Part shown: positions 32,104 through 57,921 of the stretch, piece by piece | How the letters are laid out: every line of letters starts with the position of its first letter | Position numbering within the stretch: the stretch's first letter is position 1 | Assembly: GCA_964016885.1 (NCBI GenBank) | Contig: OZ024741.1 | Coordinates: 53,134,001 to 53,198,000, forward strand | Direction of reading: 5' to 3' | DNA: 64,000 bases | Source of the DNA: Eledone cirrhosa | Taxonomy: Eukaryota | Translations under genes and position numbers: made by a program | Notes under the pieces: generated by a model | What the model was told of the DNA's origin: nothing | The model's database searches: none | What the model saw: the letters and a program-made list of their open reading frames with translations, nothing else

Positions 32104-32382
32104 TAGTTATTGATATATGTATAAATATTTATGCACACACACACACACGAACATATATATATATACATATATATATACATATATATATATATATATATAT
32201 ATATATATATATATATATATATATATATATATATATATATATATATATATATATATATATATATAAACGTTTGAATATGTGTAATAAAGCCAAAACAATG
32301 CAGATCTGGACATAGAAAAAAGAATGCAATTGTAAAAGATGTTGTTGATAATTCGCCCTTTACCTTGAATTTATTAAAATGT

Positions 32383-32417
32383 CCTTAATTTTCGAGATAA
32401 TATCTCTTCTTCGGAGG
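32383..32417 (-). ncRNA. Minimal HHR in the inverted PLE 3' copy (core CCGAAGA)
   Basis: Reverse complement: cct-CCGAAGA-agagatattatctc-GAAA-at-TA-agg. Confidence 0.6.
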
Positions 32418-33210
32418 GAAATAAAGGTCTCAAACCAGCACTTTAAATATCTAGCCAAGCCATGCTGACAGGAAATAGTATAGAGTATCTGTTCTATCTC
32501 TAATATCAAAGAATTAAAATTAGGTGGATAAAGAGTAGTCTCCCTTTAAAAGAGGTTTGTTTAGGGGGTTTTTTTTTGTTTTTTTTTTTGTTAATATTTT
32601 ATATACATGCCTGTATAAGTGTGTGGGAGAATGCATGAAGGTGTAGGTATGTGGGTGTGTGTGTGTGAGTGTGGGAAGATAGGTTTATCCGTAAATGTGG
32701 GGGTAGGTGTTATCTGGTGTTAGAACTGGTTTTGTGTGTGTATGTGTGAGAGAATAAGTGGAGGTGTAAGCGTGTGTGTGTGCGCGCGTGTGTGTGTGGG
32801 TGTGTGTGTGTAAATAAGGGGCTAGAGGCCCTATCAGGTTATAAATTGGGTGTTGAGTTCTAGTCTATTATTGATTGGTGGTTGTGTTTTATCTATAATT
32901 AGTGCTTCCTTAATTCTAAGATTGCCGTGGTTTCTTTCCTTAGTTTCTATTCTAACTGTTATGGTTTTATCGGTGTTTTTGCATTTAACTAGGTGTTTCT
33001 TAAATGAGGAAGCGTTAGTATTGAGGTGTTCTTTTATTCTTATGTGGAGTGGTCTGGTGGTGCTACCTACGTAGAAGTTGTTGCATTTGTCACACTCTAG
33101 TCTGTATACTACGTAAGCCTGGTGACATAGGTCTGTGTCGTTAATACGCTTTTAGCCTCGACGTTGTCTCCCTCTACACTACAGTCCCCGCTCATCCAGC
33201 TGTCGATTTA

Positions 33211-34359
33211 TTGACGGACTGCGTGGTCGCAGAGGACATCCACTGCTACGGCCTCCACCCGACGGACATACACCAGCTTTTGTCCTTCACAGTAGACAAC
33301 ACGTACTTCACCTTCCACCACCACACATACAGACAGACAACAGGATTACCCATGGGATCCAGCCTATCGGGCCTGCTGGCCATCACCTACATGAACCAGC
33401 TAGAATGCCGAGCCCTCAACACCTGCCATTCCCATGCCTTCTTCACCCGATATGTAGATGACATACTCATCCTTACATCATCCCGTGAGGAGGCAGAGAA
33501 AATATACTCAACATTCTCCAGCATGGACGCCAGTATAAAGTTCAGCATGGAACACCCCGATGACCGCGGATCCCTATCCCTACTGGACTTCCAACTCAGG
33601 GTAACAGAGGAAGGCAACATCCACACCTGCTTCTATAAAAAATCCGCCAGCAGGGACCTGTTCGTACACTTCAGATCGGCCCTCCCACTCGGTGCCAAGT
33701 TCGGATACATAAGGAACGAACTGGCACGTATCAAGAACAAATGCACCGACGCTGGAGACCGAGACACACACACCACACATTTCCTGGAAGTACTCAAACT
33801 GAACGGATACACGACATCCACCACAAACCGTGCCAGAAAGAACAGAGGACACCACACCCGAGGCACTAACACTTGCTTCCTGAAGCTCCCACACTTCAGT
33901 GAAGAAACAACAACAGCCATCTGCAGAGCCATCAGACGAGAGGGACTGGATATCCAACTGGCCCACTCGGGTCCTTCTCTGCGCGGACGGCTGGCCAAGA
34001 GACACTCCACCAGACATGACAACTGCTGCAGACTAGCCAACTGCCCCATCAACGACACAGACCTATGTCACCAGGCTTACGTAGTATACAGACTAGAGTG
34101 TGACAAATGCAACAACTTCTACGTAGGTAGCACCACCAGACCACTCCACATAAGAATAAAAGAACACCTCAATACTAACGCTTCCTCATTTAAGAAACAC
34201 CTAGTTAAATGCAAAAACACCGATAAAACCATAACAGTTAGGATAGAAACTAAGGAAAGAAACCTCGGCAATCTTAGAATTAAGGAAGCACTAATTATAG
34301 ATAAAACACAACCACCAATCAATAATAGACTAGAACTCAACACCCAATTTATAACCTGA
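33211..34359 (+). CDS. PLE RT (C-terminal part) + GIY-YIG endonuclease, uninterrupted 382 aa
   Basis: YRQTTGLPMGSSLS, RYVDD, LSLLD, VVYRLECDKCNNFYVGSTTRPLHIRIKEH, EALII...PPIN. Confidence 0.9.
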   Translation: MTDCVVAEDIHCYGLHPTDIHQLLSFTVDNTYFTFHHHTYRQTTGLPMGSSLSGLLAITYMNQLECRALNTCHSHAFFTRYVDDILILTSSREEAEKIYSTFSSMDASIKFSMEHPDDRGSLSLLDFQLRVTEEGNIHTCFYKKSASRDLFVHFRSALPLGAKFGYIRNELARIKNKCTDAGDRDTHTTHFLEVLKLNGYTTSTTNRARKNRGHHTRGTNTCFLKLPHFSEETTTAICRAIRREGLDIQLAHSGPSLRGRLAKRHSTRHDNCCRLANCPINDTDLCHQAYVVYRLECDKCNNFYVGSTTRPLHIRIKEHLNTNASSFKKHLVKCKNTDKTITVRIETKERNLGNLRIKEALIIDKTQPPINNRLELNTQFIT

Positions 34360-34753
34360 TAGGGCCTCTAGCCCCTTATTTACACCCCCCACACACACAC
34401 GCTTACACCTCCACTCATTCTCTCACACATACACACACAAAACCAGTTCTAACACCAGATAACACCTACCCCCCACATTTACGGATAGACCTATCTTCCC
34501 ACACTCACACACACCCACCCACATACCTACACCTTCATGCATTCTCCCACACACTTATACAGGCATGTATATAAAATAATAACAACAAAAAAACCAAAAA
34601 AAACCCCTAAACAAACCCCTTTTAAAGGGAGACTACTCTTTATCCACCTAATTTTAATTCTTTGATATTAGAGATAGAACAGATACTCTATACTATTTCC
34701 TGTCAGCATGGCTTGGCTAGATATTTAAAGTGCTGGTTTGAGACCTTTATTTC

Positions 34754-55325: not shown

Positions 55326-56469
55326 TAATAACAATAGCTAATTGTCCTAGCCTTACCTAATATAGCTGTTTTTATCTATCACGCTCTGACTAAACACGAA
55401 GAAAACTTTCCCACCATCACTACAATATCGATAGATGCAGTAATATAAACATGAAATATGGATTGAAGATCGACTATAATCAAGGAGAGTTTAGATCAGA
55501 AAATACGAAATGAAAAGATTTGGCCCGTAATGCCATCGGCAAATTCTCGAGAATTCAGTCTAATCTTTTTCGTTGTCATTCTTCAAATTATTCCCGAAAA
55601 CCTATTGATTTCATGTAGCTGTTATCCAAAATTTATTTAAAGCAAGGTATGTTTGCATCAACAAATATAGCATTGCCGCTTTCATCAGAATATCGCTGGC
55701 GGGTATACTGTTATGTCGGACCGTACAGCTTTGCTGATTCGGGAAGTATTTTATTGAGTAGTATACGTACAATTATATACGGATACACGATACTCAAAAG
55801 TATCTTTGTTTATATATTCCTACAGTAGACCAATGTATATATATATATATATATATATATATATATATATATGTGTGTGTGTGTGTGTGTGTGTGTGTGT
55901 GTGTGTGTGTGTGTGTGTATAGGAATAGAGCGGGAGAGAGAGAGAGGGGGAGACAGAGAAATATGTGTGTGCGTTTGTTTGTGTGTTGGTATATATATAA
56001 GTATGCATATATATGTATATGATTATACACACGCATATCGATCTATACTCACATGTAATCATAGGAGCGTATGTCTTCTTATTTGACGAAGAAATAAACT
56101 ACACTGTGTTAGACAAGGTCTTATCTTCGAATATATATATGTATATGTGTGTGTTTCCGCCGTGTGTGCGTATGTGCGAGTGTGTATATGCGTGTGTGTA
56201 TATGCGTGTGTGTACTTGTGTGAATTGAAATTGGTACAAATTTATTTCAGTATGTAGTGACATTAATCTATTAAGACGATTGGTGAAAGAATTTATTAAA
56301 TGTTTAAATATAATTAGTTTTGAGATTGCTGAATTTGTTCAAATTCTGCCGCCATTATGTTTACAAATTACAACATGACTCTGAAGTTCTGAAAATAGGT
56401 TTACAGTTTATTTTCAGTTAAACCCGAATAACATTTGTAATCAAAGCCAGCAAGTCATCTATGGAACAT

Positions 56470-56645
56470 GGTATACTGGTATACAGACGCGTTAGAATGT
56501 CAGATAGAATGCTTTGCACAATTCAGATAGAATGTCCGATAAAATGCTTTGCAAAATGTGTTCCAGTGCTGCCCTCTTTGATTTCAAATCTCGCCGAAGT
56601 CAACCTTACCTTTCATTTTTTTCGAGTCGACAAAATACATACTAG
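56470..56645 (+). mobile_element. Decayed SINE family A
   Basis: 'ttcaaatctcgccgaagtcaaccttacctttcat...gtcgacaaaata'. Confidence 0.55.
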
Positions 56646-57632
56646 TTTCAATTCTTCCTCTAAAGCCCTTTGTACCTTCTCTATAATTCACTCTTCTTCT
56701 CGGGCTCACGACACGTCGTATATCACGACGGTGTCCCTGAGAGCCCATCACTACTTACAGATCCTTCCATCCATCTATCATCCATACATACATATATATT
56801 TCTTTCATACATTTTAGGTTTTAAATCGATCCATCAGAGGATTTATATAACTATCAACATGTTTTACACAGTAATATATGGATTCATCTTCCTAGTATGG
56901 TGTTCTGAATATATACATATATTTGTACAAGCATTCTGCCGTTTACTGCCAGAAAAAATCATATATATATATATGTGTGTGTGTGTTGGGGTGGGGGGTG
57001 ATGAATATATATATATATGTATATATACATGATTGTTTCTGAGGATAGTCGACAGAATGGATGTGTTTATCGAGGCTTATAGTATGGAGATGCTTAAATA
57101 CTCTTGATTGGTCTACACCTCGAGTAATATTGCTTGCCTACTGATACAATCGTAAGACAATGGATTAGTTAACTACCACACTTTGCCTTATATTTCACTT
57201 ACTCAGTATTATAGTGGACTTTATTATTTGACCACTGCACGACAAGTCCTACGATACCGCTTTTCATAAAAAAAATTTCGCTATACTTTGATGGGATGTT
57301 AACTTCAACACGACACAGTGTTTTAAAATAGTAATAAAATCGGTCTCAATTACGTTGAACATGAATGATTATATGATTATATATATAAATATATATATAT
57401 ATATATATATATATATATATATATATATATATATATATATATATATATATATATATATATATATATATATATATATATATATATATATATAGTTGTTATA
57501 GAGTAAGGTGTATTATTGGTTGTGTCATACGGTCCAATAAACTTTTGTTAGCAATATTAAGTTCTCCACGCTTTTGTATATCTCCAATTCCATTTATGGG
57601 AACAGCTAGATGATGTAAAACGGGGTATTTGT

Positions 57633-57921
57633 ATCAAAATAAAGATCCGAAGGCATGGCATAAATGTCCAATCATTTTAATCACGACACATGTTTCAATA
57701 AGAGATAGATCGATCGTGTAGCCATGATCGATTATCACTGATCTCGTCAGGTGAAAATGATTTGTCTTCAAATCCTTGATATGGGGGAGAAAATTTAACG
57801 ATGTTCACTCACTAGAGTGATAATCGATCATGGCCACACGATCGATCTATCTTTTATTGAAACGTGTCGTGATTAAAATGATTGGACATTTATGCCATGC
57901 CTTCGGATCTTTATTTTGATA
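57633..57921. mobile_element. Fold-back HHR element in (TA)n
   Basis: 57633-57739 is the reverse complement of ~57816-57921. Confidence 0.75.
57681..57754 (-). ncRNA. Type I hammerhead with a long stem II
   Basis: Reverse complement: tcac-CTGACGA-gat...atcgatc atggctacac gatcgat...att-GAAA-catgtg-TC-gtga. Confidence 0.75.

What the first reader, a model, noticed from the sequence alone, without database searches (positions are those of the whole stretch)
32262..57921. Shared integration signature: outward-facing inverted arms in (TA)n link the coding PLE to the non-coding HHR elements
Seen: the PLE (32262-34909) and the elements at 36797-36900, 43501-44214, 50203-53797, 53851-53972 and 57633-57921 all have a left arm with HHR-sense on minus, a right arm on plus, and lie in (TA)n. 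42821-43316 fits too, judged from its spacer half-motif. Known: PLE insertions often carry inverted 5'-truncated copies and favour AT-rich sites. Inference: one PLE RT/GIY-YIG machinery mobilises a whole set of unrelated ribozyme RNAs, perhaps priming from both ends of a break in (TA)n.
Basis: partly seen in the sequence, partly recalled or inferred. Interest (0 to 1): 0.7.

Follow-up and report, generated by a model that had tools for sequence, protein, structure and literature searches.

The report
One-tailed mirror insertions of Penelope elements
Several Penelope-type jumping genes and some protein-free ribozyme repeats in this animal genome sit in TA microsatellites as two back-to-back arms, one almost always ending a fixed distance later than the other, which likely records one enzyme pair copying the same RNA from both ends of a DNA break.

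Summary
The layout is real and holds across the genome sample. Of 206 fetched loci from five families, 144 are simple two-armed insertions, all minus arm then plus arm. 257 of 284 outer ends lie at (TA)n (window baseline 8%).

'One PLE machinery, many non-coding RNAs' is not supported. 36797 and 57633 are truncated ends of two other protein-coding Penelope-like families, and 53851 has only half a hammerhead. The non-coding riders are the 311-bp and ~633-bp retrozymes and a ~573-bp unit; their helper enzyme is unidentified.

The arms share subfamily variants (637 of 641 comparisons), yet in 10 insertions neither arm can be a fold-back copy of the other. This favours twin priming on one RNA. The inverted arm, one-sided tail, TA preference and retrozyme-PLE link are published, and the scan noted this layout before on other DNA. 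Junctions at this locus were not confirmed by reads.

The parts
32262..33145 (-). PLE-1 left arm: inverted 5'-truncated copy, ends at site A (no tail), (TA)n outside
33143..34949 (+). PLE-1 right arm, ends at site B; 3-nt overlap with the left arm at the junction
33145..34359 (+). C-terminal 404 aa of the PLE-1 ORF: RT (PF00078) + GIY-YIG (PF01541); the family has ~900-codon open frames in a 3127-bp tandem unit
34754..34789 (+). minimal hammerhead-like motif of the PLE-1 pLTR (variant core CCGAAGA; stems I and II fold); mirrored in the left arm
34910..34949 (+). PLE-1 tail (A to B, 40 nt), on one arm only
36795..36986 (.). PLE-2 (Hydra-type coding family) mini-insertion: minus arm to site A (36795-36855), plus arm to site B (36855-36986), tail ~82 nt; holds the 3' half of the family's hammerhead
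42777..43316 (.). ~633-bp retrozyme family: minus arm 42777-43144 ending at B (tail with an internal deletion), plus arm 43141-43316 ending at A; 3' half of the hammerhead in the left arm; 4-nt junction overlap
43498..44216 (.). 311-bp retrozyme insertion: minus arm to A (43498-43957), plus arm to B (43956-44216); complete minimal type I hammerhead motif in each arm (43643-43667 -, 44019-44043 +)
50202..53797 (.). 311-bp retrozyme array: 7 units on minus ending at A, 7-nt insert at the junction (52394-52400), 4.5 units on plus ending at B
53851..54018 (.). ~573-bp tandem family with only a CUGAUGA half motif: minus arm to A (53851-53925), plus arm to B (53925-54018), tail ~46 nt
57492..57921 (.). 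PLE-3 (coding family) mini-insertion: minus arm 57492-57818 ending at B (141-nt tail, complete hammerhead motif), plus arm 57816-57921 ending at A
27126..27762 (.).
44243..44352 (.). further PLE-2 mini-insertion: minus arm from B, short degenerate plus arm to A (right arm read by eye)
63554..63654 (.). further PLE-2 mini-insertion (B left, A right), sharing a (TA)n tract with a single plus arm at 63480-63523

Best explanation
These are insertions of at least four Penelope-like retrotransposon families and of three short, apparently non-coding tandem RNAs, and their shared shape likely comes from twin-primed reverse transcription at a cut in (TA)n. SHOWN: two arms with 3' ends outward; one arm ends at site A and the other at site B further downstream; either arm can be on either side and either can be the longer; both arms carry the same subfamily variants; junctions are blunt, share a few bases, or hold short inserts. 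INFERRED: a PLE protein dimer nicks both strands of an AT-rich target. One freed 3' end starts copying the bound RNA at A and the other at B, probably helped by short TA-like bases at those sites. Both cDNAs run towards the RNA's 5' end over the same sequence and stop at independent points. They are then joined head-to-head by microhomology-type repair and filled in. INFERRED: the 311-bp and ~633-bp hammerhead repeats (non-LTR retrozymes) and the ~573-bp unit are copied in trans by some PLE in the same way; which PLE is unknown.
For: Orientation: 144 of 144 simple two-armed insertions are minus-plus. End pairing: 127 A+B, 1 A+A, 1 scored B+B that is a partial tandem continuing past B, 15 with an end elsewhere or cut by the locus edge. 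In the three sets whose query did not include the tail or both arms: 27 of 30 (PLE-1), 13 of 16 (311-bp), 26 of 28 (PLE-2), with no true like-with-like pair. The ~573-bp family adds 4 of 4 callable. Arm reach in PLE-1: A further 14, B further 11, equal 2. In 10 of these (L166-L169, L177, L186, L187, L193, L195, L198) the A arm lacks the tail entirely yet reaches further 5' than the B arm, so neither can be copied from the other. Same source: arms agree at 637 of 641 diagnostic-site comparisons in PLE-1 (231 disagreements expected if independent), 127 of 131 in PLE-2, 45 of 53 in PLE-3, 148 of 160 in the 633-bp family. Junction overlap of 2 nt or more in 6 of 16 311-bp insertions and 14 of 31 PLE-1 insertions by BLAST edges. 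Published biochemistry fits: a Poseidon PLE cuts and extends both strands, starts at two adjacent internal RNA sites whose spacing is the tail, and is predicted to be a dimer (PMC11167929).
Against: No intermediate or reaction was observed; the mechanism rests on insertion anatomy. One RNA cannot be told from two RNAs of the same donor locus; two 633-bp and two PLE-3 insertions have 2-4 discordant sites. The A and B windows were set after seeing the data and widened, because BLAST runs into the TA flank. Two of the 13 311-bp A calls (L041, L048) are doubtful: k-mer tiling put those ends at monomer positions 69 and 103. 29 PLE-2 loci came from a query that itself was A+B, and the PLE-3 and 633-bp sets partly from two-arm queries. 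13 PLE-1 loci were picked because the listing showed inverted ORF pairs. 59 of 206 loci show one arm only, some because the locus was too short, so two arms are common but not obligatory. In vitro, the anole enzyme showed no difference in start site between the two strands, which does not itself predict strict A+B pairing. Retrozyme mobilisation by a PLE is inferred from the footprint only.
Confidence: 0.7

Rival explanations
1. A single PLE enzyme (the window's PLE-1) mobilises all of these as unrelated non-coding ribozyme RNAs.
For: All share orientation, TA target and a one-sided tail. PLE-1 is young with open ~900-codon frames, the 311-bp arrays are equally young (99-100% identical), and their tail (27-38 nt) is near PLE-1's 40 nt.
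Against: The 36797 and 57633 families have their own RT/GIY-YIG coding sequence. At least four coding families occur in the window alone. No sequence similarity between the non-coding units and any PLE 3' end tested. No cross-mobilisation was seen between the two PLE types in a rotifer (PMC3846280 passage). PLE-1 as helper of the 311-bp retrozyme alone remains possible.
Confidence: 0.07
2. One arm is made by ordinary target-primed copying and the second by fold-back or self-priming, possibly on an antisense template, with the tail left by endonuclease resolution (as proposed in PMC3846280 and PMC8557442).
For: Explains why arms share variants. Some junctions are near-symmetric (L171, L172; many PLE-2 mini-insertions). 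It is the published hypothesis.
Against: In 10 PLE-1 insertions neither arm contains the other's sequence. Junction points of the two arms differ by up to kilobases and neither end type is consistently longer. A more complex version with a tandem DNA intermediate cut at A and B is not excluded.
Confidence: 0.18
3. Fold-back chimeras from amplification or assembly.
For: Young arrays have arms 99-100% identical. No independent record spanned junction 33145.
Against: A fold-back would mirror the flank and both ends, but flanks differ and the ends are A versus B. Arms of older insertions differ by 2-5%. Independent data show many different joints in the PLE-2 mini-element, including an opposite-strand joint in 54 raw Illumina reads from 1 start (these come from other copies).
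Confidence: 0.02
4. MITE-like DNA transposons with terminal inverted repeats inserted at TA.
For: Inverted arms, TA flanks, thousands of short copies.
Against: The two ends are never the same sequence position, arm lengths and junctions vary copy by copy, and long copies run into RT/GIY-YIG frames or tandem hammerhead units.
Confidence: 0.02

Closest known systems
Insertion unit of endonuclease-bearing Penelope-like elements: partial tandem, adjacent inverted 5'-truncated copy, 30-40 bp tail often at one end, (TA)n bias (Craig et al. 2021, PMC8557442; Arkhipova et al. 2013, PMC3846280; passages read)
   Same: Head-to-head arms, one-sided tail, TA target, junction microhomology, hammerhead in the pLTR.
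   Different: Here the pairing is counted and is nearly strict (127 A+B against 1 A+A); tails reach 80-140 nt in three families; the published explanation is self-priming or endonuclease resolution, which the 10 non-nested insertions argue against in its simple form.
Poseidon PLE of the green anole in vitro (Frangieh et al. 2024, PMC11167929; main text read)
   Same: Two internal start sites whose spacing is the tail; both target strands cut and extended; AT-rich target; predicted dimer.
   Different: That text does not link the two sites to the two arms of one insertion and calls the start site non-homologous to the target. Here A sites, and several B sites, are followed by 2-8 TA-like template bases.
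Animal non-LTR retrozymes (Cervera and de la Pena 2020, PMC7229834, passages; Li, Clavereau and Pollet 2026, bioRxiv 10.64898/2026.07.22.740005, parts 1-3 of 5)
   Same: Tandem low-GC non-coding units with a type I hammerhead each; proposed to be moved by PLEs.
   Different: The first has no occurrence of 'inverted' and the parts read of the second do not analyse insertion ends; their evidence is co-occurrence and pLTR homology. Here the evidence is the integration footprint, and no pLTR homology was found.
L1 twin priming (PMC2837659, search listing only; mechanism from my own knowledge)
   Same: Both target strands prime on one RNA, giving an outward-facing inverted 5' segment joined by microhomology.
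   Different: In L1 the second priming site is variable and the arms do not overlap in sequence; here it is fixed, close to the first, and both arms copy the same stretch.

Membership tests
Endonuclease-plus Penelope-like element (PLE-1) | single ORF with RT and C-terminal GIY-YIG | tested here: met
   Pfam RVT_1 and GIY-YIG above cut-off in the window fragment and in a 900-codon copy
Endonuclease-plus Penelope-like element (PLE-1) | partial tandems (pLTR), inverted 5'-truncated copy, one-sided tail | tested here: met
Endonuclease-plus Penelope-like element (PLE-1) | hammerhead in the pLTR | tested here: inconclusive
   stems I and II fold but the core is CCGAAGA in 66 of 69 matches; my script did not call it
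Endonuclease-plus Penelope-like element (PLE-1) | clade placement by RT phylogeny (Neptune/Nematis versus Poseidon) | not tested
   GxKF, DKG, a cysteine linker and CCHH-like residues are visible; no reference tree built
Hydra clade of PLEs (PLE-2; 36797 family) | RWK-like and DKT motifs, CxCx5C linker, no CCHH, C-terminal GIY-YIG-like domain, canonical hammerhead, (TA)n targets | tested here: met
   motifs seen in L332, L334, L337 against the definition in PMC8557442; Atlas look-alikes carry RVT_1 (17% of one cluster) and GIY-YIG (31%); no Pfam hit; three-way hammerhead fold with U3-A8 core; no tree built
Hydra clade of PLEs (PLE-3; 57633 family) | coding RT and endonuclease next to the pLTR, DKT motif | tested here: inconclusive
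   endonuclease C-terminus about 1.5 kb upstream of the tail in L296, L298, L306 and an RT frame with DKT after the tail in L292, 32-42% identical to PLE-2; linker not seen; no complete copy fetched
Non-LTR retrozyme (311-bp family) | tandem units of 150-450 bp, GC under 50%, no ORF, type I hammerhead in each unit | tested here: met
   311 bp, GC 0.35, longest ATG frame 30 aa, minimal hammerhead with palindromic stem III in all 11 motif-bearing units of the 50.2k array
Non-LTR retrozyme (~633-bp family) | tandem non-coding unit with type I hammerhead | tested here: met
   period 632-634 seen in L219 only; complete motif in L228; GC 0.35, longest frame 33 aa; longer than 150-450 bp but within the 51-972 bp range of the 2026 preprint
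Non-LTR retrozyme (~573-bp family; 53851) | type I hammerhead in the unit | tested here: not met
   CUGAUGA present, GAAA absent; tandem unit in L355 and L359; a 185-aa ATG frame exists in a trimer of the unit, no PLE protein match in the unit
Non-LTR retrozyme (all) | self-cleavage, expression as circular RNA | not testable with these tools
   needs RNA data and an assay
MITE / TIR DNA transposon | matching fixed terminal inverted repeats at both ends | tested here: not met
   ends are A and B in 127 of 128 callable insertions

The most novel reading that the evidence does not exclude
Twin priming is the normal, built-in integration route of endonuclease-bearing Penelope-like elements across distant clades. 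An asymmetric protein dimer assigns one target strand to RNA site A and the other to site B of one RNA. Non-coding hammerhead RNAs ride along by offering their own A/B pair without sequence similarity to the helper. This would explain the long-known head-to-head arms and one-sided tail in one step, and reduce the cis-requirement of retrozymes to a two-site priming module.
Probability: 0.5. Interest if true: 0.7.

Novelty: new member of a known kind. Interest (0 to 1): 0.48.

Why it matters
How Penelope-like elements, the closest mobile relatives of telomerase, form their inverted arms and tail is described in the literature as unresolved. A near-strict one-tailed, one-untailed pairing, same-source arms and non-nested arms turn this into a sharp in vitro prediction for the published assay: the two start sites are used once each, on opposite strands. 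The same footprint on non-coding hammerhead arrays is insertion-level support for the proposed retrozyme-PLE partnership. The elements themselves belong to known classes.

Tried and rejected
Rfam E-value scan of the window: microsatellite noise and one weak HH9 hit at 3089-3164; it missed the minimal hammerheads.

My first idea that 36797 is a fixed-structure SINE or MITE: rejected, because junctions vary copy by copy and long copies lead into a coding PLE.

The first ~573-bp reference (from L355) was wrong, so its rows were dropped and redone with L359. The PLE-2 row picked the wrong place and was ignored. The hammerhead script was too strict; the relaxed one still missed the PLE-1 and PLE-2 motifs, which were judged by folding. 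Exact-extension junction calls for PLE-1 (6 of 30 with overlap of 2 or more, 15 with inserts) are inflated towards inserts by mismatches to the reference.

A shared stem-loop between A and B was not evident in single-sequence folds. Target-site duplications could not be read inside (TA)n. No RNA holder was listed for the PLE. Contigs and RAD reads did not span junction 33145; 43957 and 52395 remain untested.

Paper searches for a twin-priming account of PLE arms, or for inverted or tailed retrozyme insertions, listed none by title or abstract start. The library lacks most subscription papers, and no supplements were read.
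Full report
Setting. The window is G000:C2:53134001-53198000 in a 3.0-Gb assembly rich in (TA)n. The host was not identified. I mapped each listed element, searched the genome for its family, fetched loci and scored their ends.

What is in the window. Self-comparison confirms inverted arms at all listed places and adds 27126-27762, 44243-44352 and 63554-63654. In every case the mirrored part stops on one side while the other arm continues before reaching (TA)n. The extra stretch is 40 nt for the coding PLE (34910-34949), about 82 nt for 36797, about 100 nt in the 42.8k family (partly deleted in this copy), 27-38 nt for the 311-bp arrays, 46 nt for 53851, 141 nt for 57633 and about 60 nt for 27126.

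Identity of the families. PLE-1 (32262-34949) encodes RT and GIY-YIG. All 103 scored genomic matches are 96-100% identical, and many lie in frames of about 900 codons. The tandem unit is 3127 bp. The 36797 element is the 3' end of another coding family, PLE-2: long copies carry an RT frame and an endonuclease-like domain with the Hydra-clade motifs of PMC8557442 (no Pfam hit). Its pLTR folds as a full three-way type I hammerhead with the U3-A8 core variant described in PMC4209133. The 57633 element is the pLTR of a third coding family, PLE-3, and 27126 the end of a fourth with a GIY-YIG frame upstream.

Three families look non-coding. The 311-bp unit has a minimal type I hammerhead in each copy. 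The ~633-bp unit has a complete hammerhead in L228. The ~573-bp unit has only CUGAUGA and fails the hammerhead test. None of the three aligns with the four PLE 3' ends at E 0.05.

Genome sample. I scored 206 loci: PLE-1 39, 311-bp 18, PLE-2 49 + 29, PLE-3 47, 633-bp 24, after dropping loci that repeated the same place. 144 are simple two-armed insertions and all read minus then plus. 59 show one arm in the fetched stretch and 3 are complex. Arms separated by five or more TA units were treated as separate insertions, so tail-to-tail neighbours in one TA tract, as at 63480-63599, are not counted as plus-minus. Of the 144, 127 pair A with B, one is A+A (L094), one scored B+B is a partial tandem that continues past B (L331), and 15 have an end elsewhere or at the locus edge.

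Sets found without the tail or both arms in the query give 27 of 30, 13 of 16 and 26 of 28 A+B, with no true like-with-like pair. Four callable ~573-bp insertions are also A+B. 257 of 284 outer ends have (TA)4 within about 22 nt, against 7.7% of window positions. Caveats: searches score only about 40 best candidates; the A/B windows were tuned after inspection; 29 PLE-2 loci came from an A+B query; 13 PLE-1 loci were chosen as inverted ORF pairs in the listing (all 13 such pairs were minus-plus); and two 311-bp A calls (L041, L048) disagree with k-mer tiling.

Mechanistic tests. First, which arm is longer is not fixed: in PLE-1, A reaches further 5' in 14, B in 11, equal in 2; in the 311-bp arrays 6 and 7. 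In 10 PLE-1 insertions the A arm has no tail anywhere and reaches further 5' than the B arm, so each arm holds sequence the other lacks and simple fold-back is excluded. Second, the arms come from the same source: 637 of 641 diagnostic comparisons agree in PLE-1, where 231 disagreements are expected for independent draws; 127 of 131 in PLE-2, 45 of 53 in PLE-3, 148 of 160 in the 633-bp family. Third, junctions look like end-joining: among 16 311-bp insertions, 6 share 2-5 nt, 2 share 1 nt, 3 are blunt and 5 have 1-19 inserted bases, some duplicating nearby sequence. Fourth, the template just after A, and after several B sites, begins with TA-like bases that could pair with a (TA)n primer.

Most likely mechanism (inferred, about 0.7). 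A PLE protein dimer nicks both strands in (TA)n. One 3' end primes at A and the other at B of the bound RNA. Both cDNAs extend over the same upstream sequence, are joined at their ends and filled in. This unites three published in vitro facts about the anole Poseidon element: both strands are cut and extended, two adjacent internal start sites define the tail, and a dimer is predicted (PMC11167929). That paper saw no strand difference in start site, so the strict pairing is a new prediction, not a known result. The published alternative is self-priming on an antisense template (PMC3846280).

Artefact check. Flanks are not mirrored, the two ends differ systematically, and older insertions have arms 2-5% apart. 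Independent short-read data show many different joints in the PLE-2 mini-element, including an opposite-strand joint, but these belong to other copies. No record spanned junction 33145, and the other two named junctions were not tested.

Comparison with what is known. The inverted 5'-truncated copy, the tail often at one end and the (TA)n bias are described for PLEs (PMC8557442, PMC3846280; passages). Retrozymes as non-autonomous PLE partners are proposed in PMC7229834 (passages) and argued in the 2026 preprint (parts 1-3 of 5), without analysis of insertion ends in what I read. Five paper searches listed no twin-priming account of PLE arms; supplements were not read and subscription papers are mostly absent. 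Earlier notes of this scan report the same footprint for retrozymes on other pieces of this genome and in other genomes. They agree with the reading I had reached and are not independent evidence.

Verdict. The feature is real and belongs to known classes. The added value is the counted A+B rule across distant PLE families and retrozymes, and the exclusion of simple fold-back.

Noticed in passing
   Followed up: partly
window 2951-3367 (-): Diverged relative (73-77%) of the 311-bp retrozyme, tandem, with a U3-A8 hammerhead core near 3147 (weak Rfam HH9 hit 3089-3164).
   Followed up: partly
window 58470-58617 and 60783-60933 (+): Another hammerhead-bearing repeat family; the 60811 copy has a complete type I motif with a long AU-rich stem I and ends in (TA)n.
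   Followed up: no
window 37393-37776 (+): Older single-armed PLE-1 3' end (83%), ending at A, with the canonical CTGAAGA core, whereas 66 of 69 matches in young copies read CCGAAGA.
   Followed up: partly
window 687-1478 and 37985-38954: Decayed coding fragments similar to the Hydra-type PLE-2 protein (37-56% identity).
   Followed up: no
window 43316-43498, 44216-44243, 53797-53851, 63523-63554: Insertions of different families share one (TA)n tract side by side, suggesting repeated targeting of the same microsatellite.
   Followed up: no
L240-L289 and window 36855: PLE-2 arms very often stop at the same 5' point inside the large stem-loop II of the hammerhead, giving many ~190-bp palindromic mini-elements; a structured stop site for the RT is possible.
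   Followed up: partly
window 10907-21832: Several tandem, partly broken non-LTR RT plus nuclease ORFs separated by (AAT)n; further LINE-like fragments at 8460-10435 and 22797-27063.
   Followed up: no
window 39984-40554, 48182-48363, 54590-55304, 62719-62950: A dispersed tRNA-like SINE family, including an inverted and tandem arrangement at 39984-40554.
   Followed up: no
L087: PLE-3 insertion whose two flanks share a ~20-nt unique stretch plus (TA)n and (CA)n, a possible long target-site duplication.
   Followed up: no
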